Virus record (IMG/VR): IMGVR_UViG_3300036668_000183
Span: 3,511-67,510 of that record
Strand: one strand, 5' to 3'
DNA from: a virus
Length of the DNA stretch: 64,000 nucleotides
In this document: in pieces, positions 1,908-16,545 of the stretch
Position numbering within the stretch: the first letter of the stretch is position 1
Layout: each line of letters begins with the position of its first letter
Made by a program: the position numbers and the translations under genes
Notes under the pieces: model-generated
What the model was told of the DNA's origin: nothing
What the model saw: the letters and a program-made list of their open reading frames with translations, nothing else
The model's database searches: none

Positions 1908-2016
1908 GCTTACAGAAGAGCAGGAAATGTTTTGTGATGGTCATTGCAATTGGAACATGCACCACCAAGACTGCCCACGGCACAGAGCCCGTCATGTAGA
2001 AAAGATATGTAAATGA
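1900..2016 (+). CDS. small Cys/His-rich peptide (38 aa)
   Basis: MVKLTEEQEMFCDGHCNWNMHHQDCPRH...; overlaps upstream stop and downstream ATGA. Confidence 0.45.
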   Translation: MVKLTEEQEMFCDGHCNWNMHHQDCPRHRARHVEKICK

Positions 2017-2630
2017 GCAAGTCTGAGTTTGTTATTAAAAAGATTAGCAAACAATCTTGCGCGTCAATCTTACTTAAATATCATTATCTTAAAGACTTTT
2101 CTAAAGGTTTTAAAAGTGGATTTAATTACGGGCTGTTTAAAGAAGAAAGTTTAGTTGGGTGCGTCATATATTCAGGGTTCCCCGTGCCTGAGTTAGCGCA
2201 AGGAATGCTTGGGCTTGCAAGAAATGAACAAAAGGGTTTGTTTGAATTAAGTCGGTTATGTTTACACCCAGACGTTCAAAGTTCAGAGCATAATTTAGCG
2301 TCTTGGTTTGTTTCAAAAACAATTAAATTATTGCGGAAAGAAACTGAAGTTAGAGTCATTTTGTCCTACGCCGATTCCGACTTTCATCAAGGCGTAGTTT
2401 ACAGAGCGTGTAATTTTAGTTATTACGGGTTAACTACGGTTAAAAAAGACTTTTGGATTGCGCAGGATGATGGCGCTTACGTTAAACATAGCCGTGGAAA
2501 AACAAAAGGCGTTTTGGGTGAGTGGCGAAACAGAACGCGAAAGCATAGATTTGTTTTGATATTTGATAAAACATTAAAAATTTTATGGGCGGAAACCAAA
2601 TCGACACCCCCACCTACTATTGAGGGATAG
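2013..2630 (+). CDS. Mom-like GNAT-fold DNA modification enzyme
   Basis: HYL, ELSRLC, SYAD...HQGVVYRACNFSYYG motifs resemble the phage Mu Mom family. Confidence 0.7.
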   Translation: MSKSEFVIKKISKQSCASILLKYHYLKDFSKGFKSGFNYGLFKEESLVGCVIYSGFPVPELAQGMLGLARNEQKGLFELSRLCLHPDVQSSEHNLASWFVSKTIKLLRKETEVRVILSYADSDFHQGVVYRACNFSYYGLTTVKKDFWIAQDDGAYVKHSRGKTKGVLGEWRNRTRKHRFVLIFDKTLKILWAETKSTPPPTIEG

Positions 2631-7470: not shown

Positions 7471-8070
7471 ATGGACGACGTCGATTGCTGGAACGTGGTA
7501 GATCCTATAGACTTATGGGTAACAGATAAACTCCTTCTCGCCAAGCAATTGGGATACTATTGTGGACCAGCTGGCTTGGTACCTGAAAGAGATGGTGAAT
7601 ATATTGTCAGACCATGTGTCAACTACAGGATGATGAGCAGAGGTGCTGAGATAATGACTCTGGGACCTTCTTATGGTGATATAATCCCCAATGGGTTCTT
7701 TTGGTGTGAGGAGTTCAAAGGCCGCCATATCACATATGATTATCACTTTGGTGTTCAAACACTAGCTGCTGAAGGGTTTCGTAATGACCTTAACAGGCTA
7801 GATAGGTTTTCAAAGTGGGTAAAAGTTGTTGATACCTATTCGCCGCCTAAAGTATTGCTAAATATTGTTATGAAATATGAGTGGATAAACCTGGAAGTTA
7901 TTGACGGTAAGGTAATTGAAGTTCATTTTCGATTTAATGATGACTTCAATAATCACACATCAACAACAATTATCCCTGTTTGGAAAGAACACTACGACAA
8001 AGACTTGCACGGAGGTAAAAACTTTTATCCAAGTGAGTGTGGAGATCGAATAGGATTTTTATTAGAGTGA
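7471..8070 (+). CDS. hypothetical protein, possible ATP-grasp-like fold
   Basis: YIVRP...G, WCEEFKG, INLEVIDGKVIEVHFR resemble ATP-grasp elements. Confidence 0.5.
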   Translation: MDDVDCWNVVDPIDLWVTDKLLLAKQLGYYCGPAGLVPERDGEYIVRPCVNYRMMSRGAEIMTLGPSYGDIIPNGFFWCEEFKGRHITYDYHFGVQTLAAEGFRNDLNRLDRFSKWVKVVDTYSPPKVLLNIVMKYEWINLEVIDGKVIEVHFRFNDDFNNHTSTTIIPVWKEHYDKDLHGGKNFYPSECGDRIGFLLE

Positions 8071-8098
8071 CATTAACTTTATTTGATATAGGACTAAC

Positions 8099-8290
8099 AT
8101 GAATGTAATCAGCAATTACTTTAGTGATGATAGAACAAAACAAGCAATAGTCAATATCCTTGACAGTATTCCTGTAGTTAAGTTTTATCAGGACAATATA
8201 AAATTGGAGACACGAGTGTTGATTGGTCTCACTCTTCAACAGGCTGAGGATATCGCAGTAAACTATATCCAAGGTACCTTTAAAATATAG
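8099..8290 (+). CDS. hypothetical protein
   Basis: AGGA RBS; ORF track. Confidence 0.55.
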   Translation: MNVISNYFSDDRTKQAIVNILDSIPVVKFYQDNIKLETRVLIGLTLQQAEDIAVNYIQGTFKI

Positions 8291-8301
8291 TAGTGGAGGT
8301 T

Positions 8302-8619
8302 ATGATGAAACCATTTTTAACAGCATTAGCTATCTTAGTGTCGCCTTTGGTATATGCTGATGATAGTAAAGTTGAAGTTGTAAACATGCCAATATACTGT
8401 GTTACAGATAAGAAACTATCTGATACAGTTATAGAGTTTAAAGAGATTCCTGTTGCAGAAGGAATTAGTTTGAGAAAAATTGATGGTAAGGAATATAAAA
8501 GTCCGTTAGTGATCCTTATAAACAAAGACAATTCTAGTTATACAATTGCTGAAAAGGTATCAGAAACCCACTTCTGTATCATTGCTATGGGTGAGAACTT
8601 TCGGCCAGTTGCTAGGTAG
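8302..8619 (+). CDS. hypothetical exported protein
   Basis: GGAGG RBS; signal-peptide-like MMKPFLTALAILVSPLVYA. Confidence 0.65.
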   Translation: MMKPFLTALAILVSPLVYADDSKVEVVNMPIYCVTDKKLSDTVIEFKEIPVAEGISLRKIDGKEYKSPLVILINKDNSSYTIAEKVSETHFCIIAMGENFRPVAR

Positions 8620-8620
8620 T

Positions 8621-8956
8621 ATGAAAGGTTATGATCGTATGAAGTTAATCCAAAGGTGCTCTGGACAGGGTATTGTAACAGGTATTGTCGGAACAATCGT
8701 TGCTCAGCAAATCTTTCGTCCACCTGTTGTAGTGGTTCCTCAGGGAGTGCCCATGCAACCAGGATACGCTCCAGGATATGCTCCTCAAGGAGTGCCTATG
8801 CAACCAGGATACGCTCCAGGATATGCCCCACCTATGGTTCCTTATTATCCGGGTACCGTGTATCCAGATTTCGTTTACCGTCCAATGTTTCGAGACGTCG
8901 ATGTGTGGATTCCAGAGTGTCAATGCTACCGGACAATGCGCGTTCAAATAAGGTAA
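8621..8956 (+). CDS. Pro/Tyr-rich hypothetical protein
   Basis: Hydrophobic GIVTGIVGTIVA, PGYA repeats, CxC C-terminus; start uncertain. Confidence 0.55.
   Translation: MKGYDRMKLIQRCSGQGIVTGIVGTIVAQQIFRPPVVVVPQGVPMQPGYAPGYAPQGVPMQPGYAPGYAPPMVPYYPGTVYPDFVYRPMFRDVDVWIPECQCYRTMRVQIR
8738..8827 (+). repeat. 45-bp tandem duplication (PQGVPMQPGYAPGYA x2)
   Basis: 8738-8782 and 8783-8827 differ only at synonymous sites. Confidence 0.9.
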
Positions 8957-8962
8957 GGATTT

Positions 8963-9037
8963 GCGCCCATCGTATAATGGATAATACAGGGGATTTCTAC
9001 TCCCTAAATGTGGGTTCAATTCCTGCTGGGCGTACCA
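8963..9037 (+). tRNA. tRNA-Arg(TCT)
   Basis: Cloverleaf, TT-TCT-AC loop, CCA. Confidence 0.92.
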
Positions 9038-9072
9038 ACATCAAATTTTATAAACCAAAAGGATAATACACT

Positions 9073-9546
9073 ATGAAGAATTGGGAAGACTATGTAGGGC
9101 TTCAACCGTCTAAGGCATTTGAATCAGATAAACATATTATTTTTTACTTGAGTTGCGAACAAAAAGTTTCAGAAGAAGATGGCAAAGAATACCCAATAAT
9201 TTCTGTAAAAAGATTTATGTTAGAGCATGAATTATTTGAGTTTAACAAAAAAGAAGTTGGTGATATTGTTGAGTCTGTAATTCGTAAATCCTTTCCTTTA
9301 TTTAAGCCTGAAGTAGAAGGAGGTCTTTTAGAAGATATTAAAAGACATGCATCGTATGAGGTACAGAAAAACACAAGGATAGGAGGAGCCAATACCGAGT
9401 TTGAAGATTATGTAATGTATGTTGGTCCTACTATTTATGATCGTCCAATATTTGTTGGAGAACTGAAAGGCATGTATGCTGTCATGCCTCACCCTGAAAT
9501 TGAAAAGTATGGTTACCGAGTATGCGAATCGGTATCTTCTGATTAA
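9073..9546 (+). CDS. hypothetical protein
   Basis: AAGGA RBS; ORF lying between two tRNAs. Confidence 0.65.
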   Translation: MKNWEDYVGLQPSKAFESDKHIIFYLSCEQKVSEEDGKEYPIISVKRFMLEHELFEFNKKEVGDIVESVIRKSFPLFKPEVEGGLLEDIKRHASYEVQKNTRIGGANTEFEDYVMYVGPTIYDRPIFVGELKGMYAVMPHPEIEKYGYRVCESVSSD

Positions 9547-10308: not shown

Positions 10309-11904
10309 TTAAGATATTATTAGGTGTGGTGCAGCCTGAAATTCCGATGCAATCTTTTTTGGATCTGCCTTACCTAGTTTGTTAGTTATTATATTTTTCA
10401 TTTTGTCATAATCGGTTTCATCAAAGTATATGTGTGACAACTTGGTAATCAACCCAAAAACTGTAATAAACAACTTTCTTTTAAAGTGAAGTTGAAAAGA
10501 CTCCCCACCATGTATAAAAAAGAAACAAATTTGTGCATGATCATAGTGGGCGCTAAGAACTGCAATACGAGTCGACTCGTATTTTTTAGAGTATCCCCTA
10601 ACCTCATCTACGACTAGCATTCTGTAGGTGTCATAAAAGTTTTCTGATTCTAATCCACTTATTTTCTGAAACTTATTAAAAAAGTTTATGATCTTTATGT
10701 TCTTTTTCTTTTTATAAAGAATGTCTCGACTTTCTGTAAGCGCCCCAGCAGAGACGTAAGAAGTGGAGCATTCCTTAAATGCTTCTGGGTCTAATACTTT
10801 TAGTCGATCACACACCTCTTCAAACTTAGCTCTTCTAAGCTTTCCTAATTTTACCGACATCGAATTATACATTTGATACTTTCGGCAAATCTCTTCAAAA
10901 ACACCACTAGAAACACCACCTACCCATTGAGTATCTTTTAAATGCTTTGTAGAAGCCGCAAATTGACCATTCCACCCAGCCCCATATCCTTGTGCATACA
11001 ATAAAAAATTTAGATCATATTTCATCATAGGTGTTTGACTCTTTGAGCTTCTTAACTTTGAATACCTAAACTTAACTGGCAATTCCCAATTTAATTTTTC
11101 AAAGGTTATAAAGGATTTAAAGTCAATATCAATGACAGTATCAATATACCGTTTAGTGTGTTGAGGTTCATCAAGGATTAATGCCAAGAATTTTATGAAT
11201 GGATCAATGTCTGGAAGAATTTCACCCCTTAACTTTATGTCTACTATTTTTATGTTTGGGATTGCAGAAATAGTAGTCGGCAATTTTAAAGAAATTGGTA
11301 TAAGATCCCTAGGCTCAAAATACTTTCGTATGATGTTAGCATAACTATTTGACTGTGGAGAATTTGATAAAGAGTTGTTTAGAATTGATTCTGGGTCAGT
11401 GACATATTTTTTTAAGTCCGAAGTGATTGCACCTATCTTACTTTTTTTAACGGCCATAATATCGACCGAAGAAAGAATGTCTATCTTATATGACAGATCA
11501 AAGGCTTTTTTTATGTTAGTAAGGGAAATGTCTTTTACGAGTAATACGAATGGGTCATTTTGGTCAAGAAATTTATAATCTTTTAAAGAACCTTTAAAAA
11601 CCTTTTTTTCTACACATGCCTTAGCGACCCTATAGACTTTTTTTGCTGTGGTGTGATATGATTCTTTTTTAGTCTTTTCTGTTAGGGTCACTTTAAATTC
11701 TTTCTTTACACCATTTAAAGGAAACCCTGCAGATAAGTATTTTCTTCGGTACTCTTGAACGTTGGTTGTCCCCATGAATAAACGATAAAACCCTATTGCA
11801 TGTTCGCTCTCTTCCATGCCAACTTTTTCGGTGTAGTTTGGATTTTCTGCAAAATATGCAAATGCCAAACACTGTGCAAGTTCTTTATAGTCCGCCTTAG
11901 CCAT
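10309..11904 (-). CDS. late-expressed 531-aa protein, possible PD-(D/E)XK nuclease-like
   Basis: Start moved to ATG 11904 (AGGA RBS, TATAAATA upstream); E...SVDIMAV...LIPISLK pattern. Confidence 0.55.
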   Translation of the reverse strand: MAKADYKELAQCLAFAYFAENPNYTEKVGMEESEHAIGFYRLFMGTTNVQEYRRKYLSAGFPLNGVKKEFKVTLTEKTKKESYHTTAKKVYRVAKACVEKKVFKGSLKDYKFLDQNDPFVLLVKDISLTNIKKAFDLSYKIDILSSVDIMAVKKSKIGAITSDLKKYVTDPESILNNSLSNSPQSNSYANIIRKYFEPRDLIPISLKLPTTISAIPNIKIVDIKLRGEILPDIDPFIKFLALILDEPQHTKRYIDTVIDIDFKSFITFEKLNWELPVKFRYSKLRSSKSQTPMMKYDLNFLLYAQGYGAGWNGQFAASTKHLKDTQWVGGVSSGVFEEICRKYQMYNSMSVKLGKLRRAKFEEVCDRLKVLDPEAFKECSTSYVSAGALTESRDILYKKKKNIKIINFFNKFQKISGLESENFYDTYRMLVVDEVRGYSKKYESTRIAVLSAHYDHAQICFFFIHGGESFQLHFKRKLFITVFGLITKLSHIYFDETDYDKMKNIITNKLGKADPKKIASEFQAAPHLIIS

Positions 11905-11942
11905 GGTAAAATTCCTGTAATAATTTAGTATTTTTATATTAG

Positions 11943-11950
11943 TATTTATA
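11943..11950 (-). promoter_or_regulatory. T4-type late promoter TATAAATA
   Basis: Exact consensus ~40 nt upstream of ATG 11904. Confidence 0.75.
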
Positions 11951-12033
11951 TATATAAATTGTGTCACCATGAAAAGCCAAAGTCGTGTATAATTAGATCT
12001 GTTGTCTAATTTTAAAGCCTGAGGAAATAGTCT

Positions 12034-12168
12034 ATGAACATTGTACGAGAAATGCATGAAAGTGGTCTTTCAAAATCCGATATCGTATGGGAAGTGTTGG
12101 GTGCACTCAGTGTTTTTGCCTTACCCATTATTGTGTTGTTTGTTGGTAGTTATCTAGGTTTAAAGTAA
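12034..12168 (+). CDS. small membrane protein (44 aa)
   Basis: GAGGA RBS; hydrophobic VLGALSVFALPIIVLFVGSYLGL. Confidence 0.6.
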   Translation: MNIVREMHESGLSKSDIVWEVLGALSVFALPIIVLFVGSYLGLK

Positions 12169-12303: not shown

Positions 12304-12699
12304 ATGTTAAATGAATTAACTCAGTTAGGACTATTACTCGCAGTGGCATATGCCATCTTTAAGTCAGGCGAAGCCTATACTCTTTGGAGAATTCAAAGAG
12401 ACATCGCGGCTTTGGAAAGTGGTGAATTAGTATATGAGGAAGAAGAGGAAGAAGACGATTCCGTAAGTGTTGAATCAATGACAATAAAAAAAGTCGATAA
12501 TGTTTTTTATGCCTATGGAACCAATGATAGATTTTTGTGTCAAGAATCTGATTTGTCAGGGTTGTTCATGAGCATAAAGGATTCTTTCCCTAAGACAATC
12601 TGGTTGATCAATGAAGCCAAGTATACGACTTTAACATCCGAAGAGCAAGAATCAATTTTACCTACATTGTCAAACATTTTTTCTAACACCAAAGAGTGA
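12304..12699 (+). CDS. hypothetical membrane-anchored protein
   Basis: Start at ATG 12304 (AAGGAG); N-terminal hydrophobic helix; acidic tract. Confidence 0.65.
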   Translation: MLNELTQLGLLLAVAYAIFKSGEAYTLWRIQRDIAALESGELVYEEEEEEDDSVSVESMTIKKVDNVFYAYGTNDRFLCQESDLSGLFMSIKDSFPKTIWLINEAKYTTLTSEEQESILPTLSNIFSNTKE

Positions 12700-12704
12700 C
12701 CGCA

Positions 12705-12956
12705 ATGAGCGAACCTGATGAAAACTTTTTCGATTTCGGATTTACGGTAGTCAGTGAAGACGAGCTAGAATCTATTCAAGTGGCAGACGCGACAGTAGCC
12801 GACATTTACACAAGAATGAATCAACTCTATGACGCGATCATGCCTTTACTCAAGAACCTAAAACAAAACTCGGACAAGGACTACATTTACTGGCCTAACC
12901 GAGTCGAGAAGGTCGAACTGTTTGAAAAGAAAATAAAAAGTATCATGCACCCTTAA
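12705..12956 (+). CDS. conserved T4-like hypothetical protein
   Basis: FDFGFTVVSEDEL...PLLKNLK...KDYIYWPNR. Confidence 0.7.
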   Translation: MSEPDENFFDFGFTVVSEDELESIQVADATVADIYTRMNQLYDAIMPLLKNLKQNSDKDYIYWPNRVEKVELFEKKIKSIMHP

Positions 12957-13170
12957 TGTCAGGGATCAAAATACATTTACCTACTAATAAAGTAAATTCA
13001 TTTTTTTCGTTCAGATCAGGAATAAGTTCTTCGATAAGATTATTTTTACCAATTTCACATTCGGCTTCGGTATCAAAATATAGTATGGGGTCGGGCTCAA
13101 CCTCGATGCATTGATAGTTAAGTGAAGACAGACATAAGATAAGACCAATAATAAACATTTTACGTGACAT
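12943..13170 (-). CDS. small exported hypothetical protein
   Basis: AAGG RBS; LILCL...C...FDTEAEC...KC pattern. Confidence 0.55.
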   Translation of the reverse strand: MSRKMFIIGLILCLSSLNYQCIEVEPDPILYFDTEAECEIGKNNLIEELIPDLNEKNEFTLLVGKCILIPDIKGA

Positions 13171-13230
13171 CCTTTTTAAGTTTGTGGTACCATAGTGTAC
13201 CTAAAATTATATATAATAGGAATTTTTACA

Positions 13231-13899
13231 ATGATCAAAAATGAACTAGGTGAAGTAAAAGACTTCAAATTCAGTAGTGGTATGGTAGGCAACACGTTCA
13301 ATTCTCATGTGAACGAACAGTTGCCCTTCTATGAATTAGTGACCCGAGTTACCTCTTCTATCATCCGAAACTACCTACCTAAGGATGGTGTACTGTATGA
13401 CATTGGGGCATCTACGGGTAATGTGACTAGGTCGGTTGCAGACATCGGAGCATCAAGAAATGCTAGATTCATCTCTATAGAATCAAGTGAAGAGATGGGG
13501 AAAACTTGGGATGGGTATGGTGAATTGCACATAGAGGACGCAGTACACTATAATTACGAAAAGTTTGATGTTGCCGTATGTTTTCTGGTGATTATGTTCA
13601 TGACCATAGAAGAGCGTAAAATATTTATCGACAAGTTGAAGAAAAAGATGAATAGAGGTGGTATCATTATTATTGTAGACAAGGTACTTGCCGATGGCGG
13701 GTATTTTGGTACGGTGTTGCGTAGATTAACGTTCGATTGGAAACTTAAGAACGGGGCATCGCCTCAGGACATCATTAAAAAAGAGTTAAGTCTTTCTGGT
13801 GTACAAAGACCTATGTATCGAAGTGAGTTAGAGGGATCAAAAGAATTTTTTAGACTTGGTGAATTTATTGGGGTGGTGATTGAAAATGAGGTATCTTAG
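13231..13899 (+). CDS. cmoA: CmoA-like carboxy-SAM synthase / class I SAM-binding protein
   Basis: DFKF...F..HV..QLPFY, YDIGASTG, IMF...ER, RGG...VDK, WKLKNGAS..DI..K..SL parallel E. coli CmoA (DWTF, PGY, YDLGCSLG, LQF, PGG..SEK, FKRANGYS..EI..K). Confidence 0.75.
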   Translation: MIKNELGEVKDFKFSSGMVGNTFNSHVNEQLPFYELVTRVTSSIIRNYLPKDGVLYDIGASTGNVTRSVADIGASRNARFISIESSEEMGKTWDGYGELHIEDAVHYNYEKFDVAVCFLVIMFMTIEERKIFIDKLKKKMNRGGIIIIVDKVLADGGYFGTVLRRLTFDWKLKNGASPQDIIKKELSLSGVQRPMYRSELEGSKEFFRLGEFIGVVIENEVS

Positions 13900-15106
13900 T
13901 TTATTTAGTGGTATCGAGGCAGTTTCTGTTGCATGGGAACCTTTTGGGTTCGAGTGCGCGGGGGTCGCAGAGATTTTGCCCTTTCAGTCTTCTATATTGG
14001 CGGAAAGGTTTCCTAATATAAAAAATTTAGGTGATGTTACCAAGATAGATGAAGAGGTCGTCAAGTCTTTGGGACAGATTGATATTGTGGTGTTCGGTTC
14101 ACCGTGTCAAGATTTGAGTGTCTCTGGTAAACGGGGTGGACTGAATATGGATAAGGAGGACACTAACCATTCGTCAAAGTTATTCTTTGAGGGTGTTAGG
14201 GTTTTTAGATTAGCACAAAAGCATTGTGGTGCTAGGTTTATGCTATGGGAAAATGTCCCAGGCGCATTGTCGAGTATGGAGGGTAGAGATTTTGGAACAG
14301 TTCTTGAAACATTGGTTGGGGTCAAATTCGGTGGGGGAAAACTTGTTTGGGGAAATGATGGTGTTGTATGCTCAGACAATTCCCTGTGCGAATGGGCAGT
14401 GTTGGACGCTCAGTGGTTCGGAGTCCCGCAACGGAGGCGTCGAGTCTTCGCTTTACTCGATACTGGAGACTGGCGAAATAGAAGACCGATACTTCTTGAA
14501 GCCGAGCACCTGCGAAAAGTTATTGGAAAGGATGGAAATCCGAAACAAAAAAATTCCACCAAACCTAAAGATAGTTCTGGAGAAAGTAGCGTCTTCGAAA
14601 TGCACATGATGGACTTTAGAATTAAGCCCGTTAAAATTTCACCTACGATGACGAGTAAGTGGGGTGCAGGGAGTGCTCCATTAAAAATTGAAACGTTTGA
14701 TCGTCAAGGTATGAATGAGTGGTCAGATAATAGTGTGGCTTTGACCATTATCGCTAGAGATTATAAATCTGCCACCGATCTAGTGAGTTATTCGATTGTT
14801 GAAAACGTGATTGATCGTCAACATCATAATGGTGGTAATGGAATTGGTATAAATGAAAATGTTTCTTTTACTCTTAATGCAACAGGGGTTCATGCGGTGT
14901 CTAAGGATTATCAAGTTCGTAGATTAACACCAGTTGAATGTGAGAGGCTTCAGGGGTTCCCTGATGGTTGGACTAATGTAAACAATGCCCTTCCATCTAA
15001 AAGATATAATTGTCTCGGAAGATCTATGGCAGTTCCTGTTATGTCGTGGATAGGAAAACAGTTGTTGAAGGTTGAAAATTTCGAATCAAAACCTAAAAAT
15101 GTATAA
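13886..15106 (+). CDS. C5 DNA cytosine methyltransferase family, predicted carboxymethyltransferase
   Basis: Motifs I FSGIE, IV GSPCQ, VI ENV, VIII QRRRR, IX RRLTPVECERLQGFP, X GRS (canonical GNS). Confidence 0.85.
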   Translation: MRYLSLFSGIEAVSVAWEPFGFECAGVAEILPFQSSILAERFPNIKNLGDVTKIDEEVVKSLGQIDIVVFGSPCQDLSVSGKRGGLNMDKEDTNHSSKLFFEGVRVFRLAQKHCGARFMLWENVPGALSSMEGRDFGTVLETLVGVKFGGGKLVWGNDGVVCSDNSLCEWAVLDAQWFGVPQRRRRVFALLDTGDWRNRRPILLEAEHLRKVIGKDGNPKQKNSTKPKDSSGESSVFEMHMMDFRIKPVKISPTMTSKWGAGSAPLKIETFDRQGMNEWSDNSVALTIIARDYKSATDLVSYSIVENVIDRQHHNGGNGIGINENVSFTLNATGVHAVSKDYQVRRLTPVECERLQGFPDGWTNVNNALPSKRYNCLGRSMAVPVMSWIGKQLLKVENFESKPKNV

Positions 15107-15109
15107 ATA
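15102..15109 (+). promoter_or_regulatory. T4-type late promoter TATAAATA
   Basis: Exact consensus upstream of ATG 15146. Confidence 0.7.
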
Positions 15110-15145
15110 GTATAAAGATTATTTTATTAAGGGACTATTACCATA

Positions 15146-15940
15146 ATGATTACAGAAGACTTAGCAGATATATTCGCCCCACTAGATGAGGGCAATGAAT
15201 TACAACAAAAGGTCAACAAACACATCTCAAAGGGTGTTAGTGTTGGAGCGGTGTCACCAGAAGGGAAACATACAAATACGCCCGAAAAGATGAAGGCGGC
15301 TCATGCTAAAATTAAAACCGATCTTGAAGCCTCAAGAAAATCTGGTCATATTGGTGGTTGGTCTGGGCCTCATAAGGGACAGTATCGCTATGGTGGCGAA
15401 CATGAGGTGTCGCACGAAGGTTCATATCTAGTTCATGCGAAATCGGCAGACAAAAAGCATCATGGCAATATGTTAGGTGCACTTAAGAAAGTTGGTAATG
15501 TACACAAGCAAGAAACTATTCTTAGTGTTCGTGGAAACCGTGGTAATGCAAGTGATAAAAATGCACATTGGCATCACCTAAATAATTCCAAAACAAAAGG
15601 GCAGAAAGAGGATAAAGGTAAATTGAAGTATAATCAGCCTTTAGCACAAGATACAGGGAGAACCCAAATGAAAGGTAGCACACAGTCATTTACTTCAAAA
15701 AAAGAAGGGTACAGTGATTTTAATAACCTGATCGACAGCGTTCAGAATTATTGTGGTACTGATAACTTGATTACACAAAAACAGTTTGAAGAGGTTTATG
15801 GTGAGGCTCGTGAATTTTTTGTAGAAAAATACGGACAACCAGAACGAAGCTTTACATCGGTGTTTTCTTTTGGTCAGAAGTGTCGTAAAGAATTGACCGA
15901 AGCTTTGAACAACGCTGGTGTTCTGGTAGAAAGAGTTTAA
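15146..15940 (+). CDS. late His/Lys-rich hypothetical protein, possible internal head protein
   Basis: Late promoter; acidic leader MITE...LDE followed by a basic His-rich body. Confidence 0.6.
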   Translation: MITEDLADIFAPLDEGNELQQKVNKHISKGVSVGAVSPEGKHTNTPEKMKAAHAKIKTDLEASRKSGHIGGWSGPHKGQYRYGGEHEVSHEGSYLVHAKSADKKHHGNMLGALKKVGNVHKQETILSVRGNRGNASDKNAHWHHLNNSKTKGQKEDKGKLKYNQPLAQDTGRTQMKGSTQSFTSKKEGYSDFNNLIDSVQNYCGTDNLITQKQFEEVYGEAREFFVEKYGQPERSFTSVFSFGQKCRKELTEALNNAGVLVERV

Positions 15941-15944
15941 AGAA

Positions 15945-16280
15945 ATTGTTGTATGAAGTGAGGCGAACACAAGGCAAGACGCGGGTGCAAATCCCACCAC
16001 CTCCACCAAAAGAATTCTTCACCCTTATACGGTACAGTCGCCTAGACTAAAGACGTATATAAAGAGTTCTTTTGATGGGGGTGAACTAGGATCGATTGCT
16101 ACGTCAGTAACTGAATGGACAACTCGGTAATGCTAAAACCGTTAGGGTTAGGAGTTTCCTGACCGAAGAAGCGAAACAAATAAATGCAGCCAATAACAGC
16201 ATTTTCGAAGCAGAACGCTTAGTAGCGTAATCACTTCTGGGGTTTTGTTGATTGTCCTTATTATCCAATCAATCACCACT
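15945..16280 (+). ncRNA. ssrA: circularly permuted (two-piece) tmRNA
   Basis: T arm + CACCTCC-A-CCA (ends 16008) precedes GGGGGTG (16077-16083), which pairs with it including G3-U70; tag frame 16186-16230 AANNSIFEAERLVA*; outer ends approximate. Confidence 0.88.
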
Positions 16281-16311
16281 TTTATTTTTGTGAAACCACT
16301 GGAGAAATGAA

Positions 16312-16545
16312 ATGAGTAAGACACCACATGAAATTAGATTAGACATTCTTAAAATGGCTCTAGAGTCAGAATTCATTCGCTACAATACCGAGTGTGAAGT
16401 AGTGAGATCAAATTGGCAAGTCGCCTTAGATTCTGCTCGTGATGAACATCGTAACCTACCAATTCTTTCTGGGTTGCCAGAGTTTCCTTCAGAAAAGGCT
16501 ATAATCGATAGGGCAAAATTCTTTAGCAAATTTGTTGGCTTATAA
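16312..16545 (+). CDS. conserved phage hypothetical protein
   Basis: SKTPHEIRLDILKMA...FPSE..II.RA..F..FV; GGAG RBS. Confidence 0.7.
   Translation: MSKTPHEIRLDILKMALESEFIRYNTECEVVRSNWQVALDSARDEHRNLPILSGLPEFPSEKAIIDRAKFFSKFVGL

What the first reader, a model, noticed from the sequence alone, without database searches (positions are those of the whole stretch)
13231..15106. CmoA-like Cx-SAM synthase coupled to a cytosine MTase with Asn-to-Arg in motif X: predicted 5-carboxymethylcytosine DNA modification system
Seen: a CmoA-like gene overlaps (13886-13899) a complete C5-MTase whose motif X reads LGRS (AGA at 15020-15022) where the family has GNS/GNA. Known: CmoA makes carboxy-SAM from SAM and prephenate, and replacing this Asn with a basic residue (engineered M.MpeI N374K) turns a C5-MTase into a Cx-SAM-using carboxymethyltransferase. 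Inference: the phage makes its own Cx-SAM and writes 5cxmC on DNA as anti-restriction armour. Caveats: the CmoA KR motif appears as KE here (an Arg follows in VQRP). I also recall a similar pair reported from a Synechococcus phage, so novelty may lie in this lineage and its target site rather than the chemistry.
Basis: partly seen in the sequence, partly recalled or inferred. Interest (0 to 1): 0.9.

Follow-up and report, generated by a model that had tools for sequence, protein, structure and literature searches.

The report
Phage cytosine carboxymethylation gene pair
A T4-like phage carries a two-gene cassette that most likely makes carboxy-SAM and uses it to put carboxymethyl groups on its DNA cytosines; this chemistry was published in 2025, but here it sits on a different branch of DNA methyltransferases.

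Summary
A CmoA-like gene (13231-13899) overlaps by 14 nt a complete C5-cytosine methyltransferase gene (13886-15106). Its motif X reads LGRS, and Arg379 (AGA 15020-15022) aligns with M.HhaI Asn304. The chemistry is already published: Synechococcus phage S-B43 CmoA/CmoX/CmoY, PMC12783734, Dec 2025.

What differs here is the methyltransferase. It has the canonical GSPCQ motif IV, not the SPPC used to define CmoX, and is barely similar to SpCmoX (BLASTP E 0.007). It belongs to an Arg clade nested among ordinary Asn methylases. An enriched tree rejects a single Arg clade (AU p 1.8e-35), although a sparser tree did not.

Arg tracks cmoA. Of 19 Arg-type viral loci, 17 have cmoA adjacent, and the other 2 are cut at the gene start. 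Of 114 Asn-type loci, 0 have it. No CmoY ligase was found in the contig (a fragment, 39% complete) or in related loci.

Side finding: a conserved +1-frame ORF (14292-14609) inside the methyltransferase gene. It has a TTG start in 79 of 82 loci and is predicted to bind the enzyme (0.86 against 0.02 for the best control).

An earlier first-reader note of this scan flagged the same cassette on other DNA. Function is inferred, not assayed.

The parts
13231..13899 (+). cmoA-like gene, predicted carboxy-SAM synthase, 222 aa; AGGA at 13218-13221 lies upstream of the ATG
   Evidence: phrog_4752 E 4.1e-44. TIGR00740 is the best NCBIfam hit, E 1.8e-14, but below cut-off. Best PDB hits are CmoA 4GEK, 4IWN and 1IM8. 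The AF2 model has pLDDT 80.5 and its top six Foldseek hits are CmoA, TM 0.67-0.74. 23% identity, E 4e-18, to SpCmoA. SAM-contact residues Y39, D62, G64, S66 and F137 (E. coli numbering) are conserved; Arg199 is not.
13886..15106 (+). C5-cytosine methyltransferase homologue, 406 aa, predicted DNA cytosine-5 carboxymethyltransferase (large chain)
   Evidence: PF00145 E 8.8e-42. TIGR00675 scores 142 bits, above the 100.65 cut-off. Best solved relatives are M.HhaI (E 6.5e-14) and DNMT3A/B, not 8YF3. It belongs to an Arg clade (SH-aLRT 100) nested among Asn methylases.
13886..13899 (+). 14-nt overlap of the two genes, suggesting translational coupling; GGTGGTGA lies before the ATG
   Evidence: Read from the sequence. 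Related loci have the two genes abutting or overlapping (coordinates).
14105..14107 (+). TGT, catalytic Cys74 in motif IV GSPCQ (canonical PCQ, not the SPPC of CmoX)
15008..15010 (+). AAT, Asn375, four residues before the Arg; Asn-type sisters have Lys, Arg or Ser here
   Evidence: Arg-type: Asn in 111 of 111. Asn-type: K 74, R 11, S 5. The other Arg lineages have Glu in 50 of 50.
15020..15022 (+). AGA, Arg379 in motif X (LGRS), at the place of HhaI Asn304 and SpCmoX Arg350; predicted to hold the carboxylate of Cx-SAM
   Evidence: Alignments. Invariant in 93 of 93 clade members. The role of Arg350 was shown by crystal structure 8YF3 and the R350N mutant in PMC12783734.
14292..14609 (+). ORF in the +1 frame nested in the methyltransferase gene: TTG start, GGAGG at 14280-14284, 105 aa. 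Predicted small second chain of the enzyme.
   Evidence: Found in 98 HSPs over 99 loci, always in the +1 frame. The +1 frame is better conserved than the main frame in its 3' part and has no stops. The start codon is TTG in 79 of 82 loci. Predicted to bind the large chain: 0.86 against a best control of 0.02.

Best explanation
This is a two-gene DNA-modification cassette of an uncultured T4-like (Kyanoviridae-like) phage.

Step 1, inferred from homology and context: the CmoA-like enzyme converts SAM plus prephenate into carboxy-SAM, raising a cofactor that is scarce in cells.

Step 2, inferred: the methyltransferase homologue works by the standard C5 mechanism. Cys74 attacks C6 of a flipped-out cytosine, with help from Glu122 and the motif VIII arginines. 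It takes Cx-SAM instead of SAM because Arg379 replaces the motif X Asn and salt-bridges the cofactor's carboxylate. The product is 5-carboxymethylcytosine in phage DNA.

Step 3, inferred from the S-B43 precedent: the bulky anionic base shields the DNA from host restriction.

No amide ligase accompanies this lineage, so 5cxmC may be the final base, but only about 39% of the genome is in hand. The enzyme probably also needs a 105-aa chain encoded in the +1 frame inside its own gene. The target sequence is unknown.
For: Arg379 aligns with HhaI Asn304 and SpCmoX Arg350.

PMC12783734 (Results and Discussion read) reports three relevant results. SpCmoA makes Cx-SAM. SpCmoX uses only Cx-SAM, with Arg350 touching the carboxymethyl group in structure 8YF3. 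The R350N mutant is dead.

PMC13288465 (passages) reports that Lys or Arg at this site gives M.MpeI and M.CviPI Cx-SAM activity. [quoted passage not shown]

Association in viral contigs (99 loci): of 19 Arg-type loci, 17 have a CmoA-like gene directly adjacent, and the other 2 start at the methyltransferase so no upstream DNA exists. Of 70 Asn-type loci, 0 have one. One Lys-type locus has one, and so does one locus cut before motif X. A further 8 loci cut before motif X have none. In species genomes (52 loci), 44 Asn-type loci have none; 8 are cut and could not be typed.

The same CmoA subfamily also sits beside SPPC/Arg methylases, for example Moraxella phage Mcat8 (51% identical CmoA), and beside a third Arg lineage. 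Unrelated methylases next to it therefore share little beyond the Arg.

Arg always comes with loss of the basic residue four positions before it.

CmoA is the best sequence and fold match of the upstream protein.

The contig holds no CmoB.
Against: Nothing was assayed.

The CmoA-like protein scores far below the NCBIfam CmoA cut-off: 54 against 193 bits.

It has Glu185 where bacterial CmoA has Arg199, the residue that binds the carboxylate (PMC3663124). SpCmoA shares that Glu but has an Arg four residues later, where the window has Ser. In Foldseek, other methyltransferases (CysG, BelI) follow CmoA closely.

Engineered Lys/Arg variants keep SAM activity, so some 5mC is possible.

Six CmoA-adjacent methylases read 'QANG--MTVPAV' and have no basic residue at this site, so the rule is not absolute.

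The Arg-type loci form one clade, some of them near-identical. The 17 of 19 therefore counts sequences, not independent events.

The methyltransferase model is poor (mean pLDDT 59.8), and Cx-SAM could not be docked.
Confidence: 0.72

Rival explanations
1. 5cxmC is only an intermediate. A ligase or other enzyme encoded elsewhere in the unsequenced ~60% of the genome converts it to an amide such as glycyl- or carbamoyl-methylcytosine, as CmoY does in S-B43. Steps 1 and 2 are the same as in the best explanation.
For: In native S-B43 DNA only the glycine amide was found, not 5cxmC. About 2,251 ligases accompany the 5,615 published candidates (PMC12783734). The contig is a fragment, CheckV 39% complete. 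SpCmoY-like genes lie within 4 kb in 6 of the 80 CmoA-anchored loci, 5 of the SPPC type and 1 of the third type.
Against: No Asn_synthase (PF00733) in the 67.5-kb contig. No SpCmoY relative (tblastn, E 1e-4) in any of the 99 methyltransferase-anchored loci, including the 19 Arg-type ones. None in the 9 window-type CmoA-anchored loci. Apart from the pair itself, no gene family is shared between the window and those loci.
Confidence: 0.2
2. The methyltransferase is an ordinary SAM-dependent 5mC methylase that tolerates Arg. The CmoA-like protein serves another end, such as tRNA cmo5U synthesis with the host's CmoB, or draining SAM to blunt host defences.
For: Engineered Lys/Arg variants still methylate with SAM (PMC13288465). 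PMC12783734's Discussion raises SAM depletion by CmoA as an open question. The CmoA-like protein lacks Arg199.
Against: 0 of 114 Asn-type relatives have cmoA, while nearly all Arg-type loci do. Three methylase lineages next to this CmoA subfamily all carry Arg. The genes overlap and are probably co-translated. Wild-type SpCmoX did not accept SAM. No CmoB in the contig.
Confidence: 0.06
3. The CmoA-like enzyme makes a SAM analogue other than carboxy-SAM, and the methyltransferase transfers that group, so the base is something other than 5cxmC.
For: Only 23% identity to SpCmoA and 54 bits to the CmoA model. The carboxylate-binding Arg199 column is Glu, and the window clade also differs from SpCmoA four residues on.
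Against: An Arg at motif X argues for an anionic group on the cofactor. The same CmoA subfamily (47-52% identical) pairs with SPPC/Arg methylases of the published kind. No other SAM-derivatising activity is known for this fold family, to my knowledge (recalled).
Confidence: 0.04

Closest known systems
CmoA-CmoX(-CmoY) system of Synechococcus phage S-B43 (PMC12783734; structure 8YF3)
   Same: A phage-encoded CmoA homologue lies next to a C5-methyltransferase homologue whose motif X Asn is Arg. Both are T4-like (Kyanoviridae-type) phages: the window's gp32 is 51% identical to cyanomyophage gp32. Predicted product and purpose are the same.
   Different: The methyltransferase is from another lineage. 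It has GSPCQ instead of SPPC. BLASTP to SpCmoX gives E 0.007. 8YF3 is not among its PDB sequence hits at E<=1e-3 nor among its listed Foldseek hits. Residue -4 is Asn, not Glu. Gene order is cmoA then methylase with an overlap, with no CmoY ligase and no ParB. It has a nested +1 ORF. The target motif is unknown, whereas SpCmoX targets GC.
Engineered carboxymethyltransferases M.MpeI N374K and M.CviPI Y205K/R (PMC13288465, passages read)
   Same: A single basic residue at the same pocket position lets a C5 methylase use Cx-SAM.
   Different: Those are laboratory mutants that keep SAM activity and depend on supplied Cx-SAM. Here the Arg is natural, fixed in a clade, accompanied by a second change at -4, and sits beside its own cofactor synthase.
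Bacterial CmoA (E. coli 4GEK/4IWN, H. influenzae 1IM8), Cx-SAM synthase for tRNA cmo5U
   Same: Best sequence and fold match. The SAM-contact residues are conserved.
   Different: About 20% identity. Below the family cut-off. Arg199 is replaced by Glu. No CmoB partner. The neighbour is a DNA enzyme.
Two-chain C5 methylases M.EcoHK31I and M.AquI (PMC2836561, PMC3404938, passages read)
   Same: As in M.EcoHK31I, a small polypeptide is encoded in another frame inside the large chain's gene. Two related loci (L090, L094) have an M.AquI-like split into two overlapping ORFs.
   Different: The EcoHK31I small chain carries motif IX. Here motif IX is in the main frame, and the nested product resembles the start of the variable region after motif VIII.

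Membership tests
CmoX as defined in PMC12783734 | C5-methyltransferase fold with catalytic Cys, ENV and QxRxR motifs | tested here: met
   PF00145 E 8.8e-42; motifs.
CmoX as defined in PMC12783734 | 'SPPC' motif IV (S95 P96 P97 C98) | tested here: not met
   The window has FGSPCQDL. 117 of the 118 hits that cover motif IV have PCQ or PCA after S or F. The paper kept only SPPC sequences.
CmoX as defined in PMC12783734 | Arg at the position of SpCmoX R350 / HhaI N304 | tested here: met
   Arg379.
CmoX as defined in PMC12783734 | Common descent with SpCmoX | tested here: not met
   BLASTP E 0.007. The two fall in separate superclades split by a branch with SH-aLRT 100. AU test on 49 rows rejects one Arg clade, p 1.8e-35. 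A sparser 57-row set did not reject it, p 0.70.
CmoX as defined in PMC12783734 | cmoA in the gene neighbourhood | tested here: met
   Overlapping gene upstream; 17 of 19 clade loci.
CmoX as defined in PMC12783734 | Cx-SAM-dependent carboxymethyl transfer to cytosine C5 | not testable with these tools
   Needs LC-MS of nucleosides.
CmoA (TIGR00740, bacterial Cx-SAM synthase) | Score above the curated family cut-off | tested here: not met
   54 bits against 193.3; NF011995 38.7 against 285.
CmoA (TIGR00740, bacterial Cx-SAM synthase) | Arg199 salt bridge to the carboxylate (PMC3663124) | tested here: not met
   The column holds Glu in the window, SpCmoA, Mcat8 and 113 of 116 relatives. Arg193 is invariant in the 13-row alignment, eight residues later.
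CmoA (TIGR00740, bacterial Cx-SAM synthase) | SAM-contact residues and CmoA-like fold | tested here: met
   Y39, D62, G64, S66 and F137 are invariant. The top six Foldseek hits are CmoA.
Phage CmoA (SpCmoA-like, phrog_4752) | Family membership, and pairing with an Arg-bearing DNA methylase | tested here: met
   phrog_4752 E 4.1e-44. E 4e-18 to SpCmoA. 61 of the 80 nearest viral loci have an Arg-type methylase beside it: 40 SPPC, 12 of the third type, 9 of the window type.
Phage CmoA (SpCmoA-like, phrog_4752) | Cx-SAM synthesis from SAM and prephenate | not testable with these tools
   Shown only for SpCmoA.
CmoY amide ligase step | Asparagine-synthetase-like ligase near the pair | tested here: not met
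   No PF00733 in the contig; no SpCmoY relative in the Arg-type loci. The contig is incomplete.
M.EcoHK31I-type two-chain methylase | Small chain encoded in another frame inside the large chain's gene | tested here: met
M.EcoHK31I-type two-chain methylase | Small chain supplies motif IX | tested here: not met
   Motif IX (RRLTPVECERLQGFP) is in the main frame.

The most novel reading that the evidence does not exclude
Use of carboxy-SAM for DNA arose independently at least twice, and probably three times, in C5 methyltransferases. Each time it came by the same Asn-to-Arg change at motif X together with loss of the basic residue four positions earlier. The window's lineage is a canonical-PCQ enzyme made of two chains, the small one encoded in the +1 frame inside the large one's gene. 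It leaves plain 5cxmC as the final base at a target site different from SpCmoX's GC. The published SPPC filter would therefore undercount natural DNA carboxymethyltransferases.
Probability: 0.4. Interest if true: 0.65.

Novelty: new variant of a known kind. Interest (0 to 1): 0.5.

Why it matters
The chemistry is known, so the value is in breadth and in practice.

1. Natural DNA carboxymethyltransferases are not one family. Of the 80 viral loci nearest to this CmoA, 21 carry Arg-bearing methylases that the published SPPC criterion would not pick up: 9 of the window type and 12 of a third type.

2. Repeated Asn-to-Arg changes, each with a second change at -4, make a clean natural experiment on how a cofactor pocket is retuned. 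They also offer a sequence rule for finding, or engineering, carboxymethyltransferases with new target motifs for sequencing methods that use 5cxmC.

3. A ligase-free lineage may show whether 5cxmC alone protects DNA.

4. The nested +1 ORF matters at the bench. A codon-optimised synthetic gene would silently delete it and could give a false negative.

Tried and rejected
**SAM lyase downstream.** ORF 15146-15940 gave a weak PF23780 hit: E 0.006, 17 bits against a cut-off of 28. It has no PHROG, no PDB sequence hit at E<=1, and is not shared with related loci. Dropped.

**Promoters and terminators.** The scan of 12600-16400 found 13 promoter-like sites against 10.1 expected, and 0 terminators. 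Uninformative.

**DNA similarity to known phages.** Only a 37-nt match.

**First tree.** With 57 rows and only 3 on the SpCmoX side, the AU test did not reject one Arg clade: p 0.70, and the constrained tree was 14 lnL units better. I then added 8 phage relatives of SpCmoX. For speed I dropped 16 rows: L069_12271, L094_6478, L009, L017, L024, L036, L007, P0120, P0092, P0076, L047, L041, L064, L083, L022, P0086. The new 49-row set rejected it. Both trees used the 'quick' method.

**Methyltransferase structure.** The AF2 model was poor (pLDDT 59.8; residues 206-335 below 50). Its Foldseek hits only confirm a HhaI/DNMT3-like core. Cx-SAM is not among the ligands on offer, so the Arg-carboxylate contact could not be modelled.

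**Nested ORF families.** Pfam gave nothing for the nested ORF product. PHROG gave only a weak hit, phrog_16143, E 0.011.

**Ligase, ParB and CmoB.** None found, but the contig is a fragment.

**Supplements.** The supplements of PMC12783734 are closed. I could not check whether any non-SPPC sequences or this clade appear in its networks.

**Literature.** The natural system appears only in PMC12783734. A nested ORF in this methylase lineage was not found in print; the library lacks most subscription journals.
Full report
**What is there**

The window is 64 kb of a 67.5-kb IMG/VR viral contig, linear, with CheckV completeness 39%. GC content is 38.9%. The contig carries T4-type genes: gp59, gp32 and baseplate proteins. 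Its gp32 is about 51% identical to those of cyanomyophages such as S-IOM18 and P-SSM4.

At 13231-13899 lies a 222-aa class I methyltransferase-fold protein. Its stop overlaps by 14 nt the start (ATG 13886) of a 406-aa C5-cytosine methyltransferase that ends at 15106.

**The methyltransferase**

It matches PF00145 over the whole profile (E 8.8e-42) and has every catalytic motif. In the phmmer alignment to M.HhaI, its LGRS lies over FGNS, so Arg379 replaces the motif X Asn304. The same column holds Arg350 of SpCmoX.

**The upstream protein**

- Its best NCBIfam model is CmoA: TIGR00740, E 1.8e-14, but 54 bits against a cut-off of 193.
- Its best solved relatives are the three CmoA structures.
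- It belongs to phrog_4752 (E 4e-44).
- A model built on 13 relatives (pLDDT 80.5) finds CmoA as its six best Foldseek hits, TM 0.67-0.74, closely followed by CysG/BelI-type methyltransferases.
- In a 120-sequence alignment with E. coli CmoA, the SAM contacts Y39, D62, G64, S66 and F137 are invariant.
- Arg199 binds the carboxylate in bacterial CmoA (PMC3663124, passages). In the window that column holds Glu, and the same is true of Mcat8, 113 of 116 database relatives, and SpCmoA.
- SpCmoA is a proven and fast Cx-SAM synthase (PMC12783734), so the missing Arg199 does not disqualify the protein. The window clade (KELSLSGVQRP) does differ from SpCmoA (KEKELRDMLKP) in the next turn, however, and which residue takes over is unknown.

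**What is already known**

PMC12783734 (Nat Commun, Dec 2025) describes this chemistry; I read the Results and Discussion.

- S-B43 CmoA makes Cx-SAM.
- CmoX transfers carboxymethyl to cytosine C5 at GC sites, using only Cx-SAM.
- Arg350 contacts the carboxymethyl group in structure 8YF3, and R350N is inactive.
- CmoY ligates glycine, and native DNA carries the glycine amide.
- The authors list 5,615 candidate CmoX sequences, chosen for an SPPC motif plus R350, with 4,257 CmoA and 2,251 ligases on the same contigs.
- Engineered Lys or Arg at this site gives other methylases Cx-SAM activity while they keep SAM activity (PMC13288465, passages).

**What is different here**

The window's enzyme has FGSPCQDL, not SPPC.

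- Against SpCmoX it gives only E 0.007 over 146 residues.
- 8YF3 is in the PDB copy, yet it is not among the enzyme's 50 sequence hits at E<=1e-3. Those hits are led by M.HhaI and DNMT3A/B. 8YF3 is also not among the listed Foldseek hits. SpCmoX's own nearest solved relative is M.HaeIII.
- Among the 120 best database hits, P0001 to P0092 all have N[ACSV][LI]GRSMAV, and so does one fragment. Twenty-five lower-scoring hits have KALGNSM[AV]V, and 2 are truncated.
- In trees the Arg sequences form one clade (SH-aLRT 100) nested among Asn enzymes.

Independent origin of the Arg from the SpCmoX lineage was not resolved with a sparse outgroup (AU p 0.70). I then added eight phage relatives of SpCmoX. 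These showed that the SPPC side holds Arg, Asn, Met and Leu forms. With them, starred branches force two changes, and the AU test rejects a single Arg clade (delta lnL 201, p 1.8e-35).

No record in the 50,697-phage collection is more than 42% identical. A scan of 185,579 species genomes, which included the pattern GRSMAVPV[MI], found no Arg-type member. The clade is therefore known only from uncultured viral and metagenomic contigs.

**Link between Arg and cmoA**

In 99 methyltransferase-anchored viral loci:

| Motif X type | Loci | With adjacent CmoA-like gene | Note |
|---|---|---|---|
| Arg | 19 | 17 | the other 2 begin at the methylase, so no upstream DNA exists |
| Asn | 70 | 0 | |
| Lys (L094) | 1 | 1 | |
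| Cut before motif X | 9 | 1 | |

Forty-four Asn-type loci in bacterial genomes also have none. Some Arg loci are near-identical, and all belong to one clade, so this counts as one evolutionary event.

Independent support comes from anchoring on CmoA instead. Of the 80 viral loci nearest to this CmoA subfamily:

| Adjacent methylase | Loci |
|---|---|
| SPPC/Arg type | 40 |
| Third type (GGFPCATFS ... ERCGR[AST]VTV), also with Arg in this column | 12 |
| Window type | 9 |
| A type reading QANG--MTVPAV, with no basic residue here | 6 |
| Other Asn methylases | 2 |
| No methylase ORF found | 11 |

The six QANG loci are an unexplained exception.

Arg also covaries with the residue four positions earlier:

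| Group | Residue at -4 |
|---|---|
| Asn-type | K 74, R 11, S 5 |
| Window-type Arg | N, 111 of 111 |
| The other Arg types | E, 50 of 50 |

If motif X is helical there, these two side chains are neighbours. That is an inference.

**No ligase**

The contig has no Asn_synthase domain. None of the Arg-type loci has an SpCmoY relative. Apart from the pair itself, no gene family is shared between the window and those loci, which include siphophage-like contigs with ERF, YqaJ and Sf6-type small terminase genes. The pair thus behaves as a mobile two-gene cassette. Plain 5cxmC as the end product is plausible but unproven, because the genome is incomplete.

**A second chain**

An earlier first-reader note of this scan, on another genome, prompted me to examine the +1-frame ORF inside the methyltransferase gene.

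- Its translation finds a counterpart in 98 HSPs over the 99 loci, always in the frame one base after the methylase frame, in both Arg and Asn types.
- No copy lies in the main frame of the 120 proteins.
- Over the last 15 compared codons, mean pairwise identity is 0.54 in the +1 frame against 0.28 in the main frame and 0.28 in the third frame (16 Arg-type sequences). For 31 Asn-type sequences the figures are 0.65, 0.30 and 0.25.
- The +1 frame has no stops over 95 codons in any of the 47 sequences. The third frame has 208.
- The +1 codon at 14292-14294 is TTG in 79 of 82 loci. The main-frame Phe there is therefore always TTT, even in GC-rich genomes.
- An SD-like motif lies upstream in 61 of 82 loci; in the window it is GGAGG at 14280-14284.
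- From that TTG, 61 of 79 loci encode 100-119 aa.
- In L094 the same frame runs on into motifs IX and X, and from 'ILETG' onward it matches PF00145 positions 192-323. The product therefore looks like the segment that follows motif VIII in ordinary single-chain enzymes.
- Co-folding the 406-aa and 105-aa chains gave a median score of 0.86 against a best control of 0.02. That mark was reached by 58 of 80 solved complexes and 2 of 110 mismatched pairs. The runs agree in at least 85% of contacts, and the partner's pLDDT is at least 76.
- Because the piece resembles part of solved monomeric methylases, this pass may reflect that likeness rather than real binding.

The nearest precedent is M.EcoHK31I, whose small chain is encoded in another frame inside the large chain's gene but carries motif IX (PMC2836561, PMC3404938, passages).

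**Verdict**

The system is a published kind. The window shows a new variant of it: another methylase lineage with a convergent Arg, no ligase, and probably a nested second chain. All functional steps are inferred.

Noticed in passing
window 14292-14609 (+), inside the methyltransferase gene: A conserved +1-frame ORF (TTG start, 105 aa) is present in nearly all relatives of this methylase, both Arg and Asn types. It is under purifying selection and predicted to bind the large chain. It recalls the M.EcoHK31I small chain but does not carry motif IX.
   Followed up: yes
window 2013-2630 (+): A 205-aa protein of the Mom family (PF25680, E 3.3e-28, above cut-off). By recalled knowledge, Mom of phage Mu modifies adenine in DNA, so this phage may carry two different DNA-modification systems.
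   Followed up: no
L094 6478-9135: A natural Lys at the motif X position (YRSFGKSMAVP), directly downstream of a CmoA gene. It mirrors the engineered M.MpeI N374K. That methylase is split into two overlapping ORFs (8001-8645 and 8305-9135), which may be an M.AquI-like split, a frameshift or an assembly error. A second methylase of the QANG type lies upstream of the CmoA gene.
   Followed up: partly
L138, L141, L152, L159, L168, L171, L183, L189 and others: A third methylase lineage next to CmoA: GGFPCATFS motif IV and ERCGR[AST]VTV motif X. It has Arg but no SPPC, and occurs in 12 of the 80 CmoA-anchored loci.
   Followed up: partly
L128, L131-L135: Methylases directly upstream of CmoA whose motif X reads QANG--MTVPAV, with neither GN nor a basic residue. 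How, or whether, they use Cx-SAM is unexplained.
   Followed up: no
L104-L107 (Melnitz, LoVEphage, BMBtp14, Fpv5): SPPC-type relatives of SpCmoX with Leu (GLMVAP) or Met (GMSVPP) in place of the motif X Asn. No CmoA is annotated nearby, and these phages are not among the 46 CmoA hits. Their cofactor is unclear.
   Followed up: no
L108 (Pseudomonas phage PaBG 125316-129209): Gene order is ParB-like, Arg-type SPPC methylase, CmoA, small ORF, asparagine synthase. This is the published arrangement in a cultured jumbo phage.
   Followed up: no
window 15102-15109: TATAAATA overlaps the methylase stop codon, 37 nt before ORF 15146. By recalled knowledge it matches the T4 late-promoter consensus.
   Followed up: no
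window 10309-12057 (-): A 582-aa ORF on the opposite strand with no Pfam or PHROG family.
   Followed up: no
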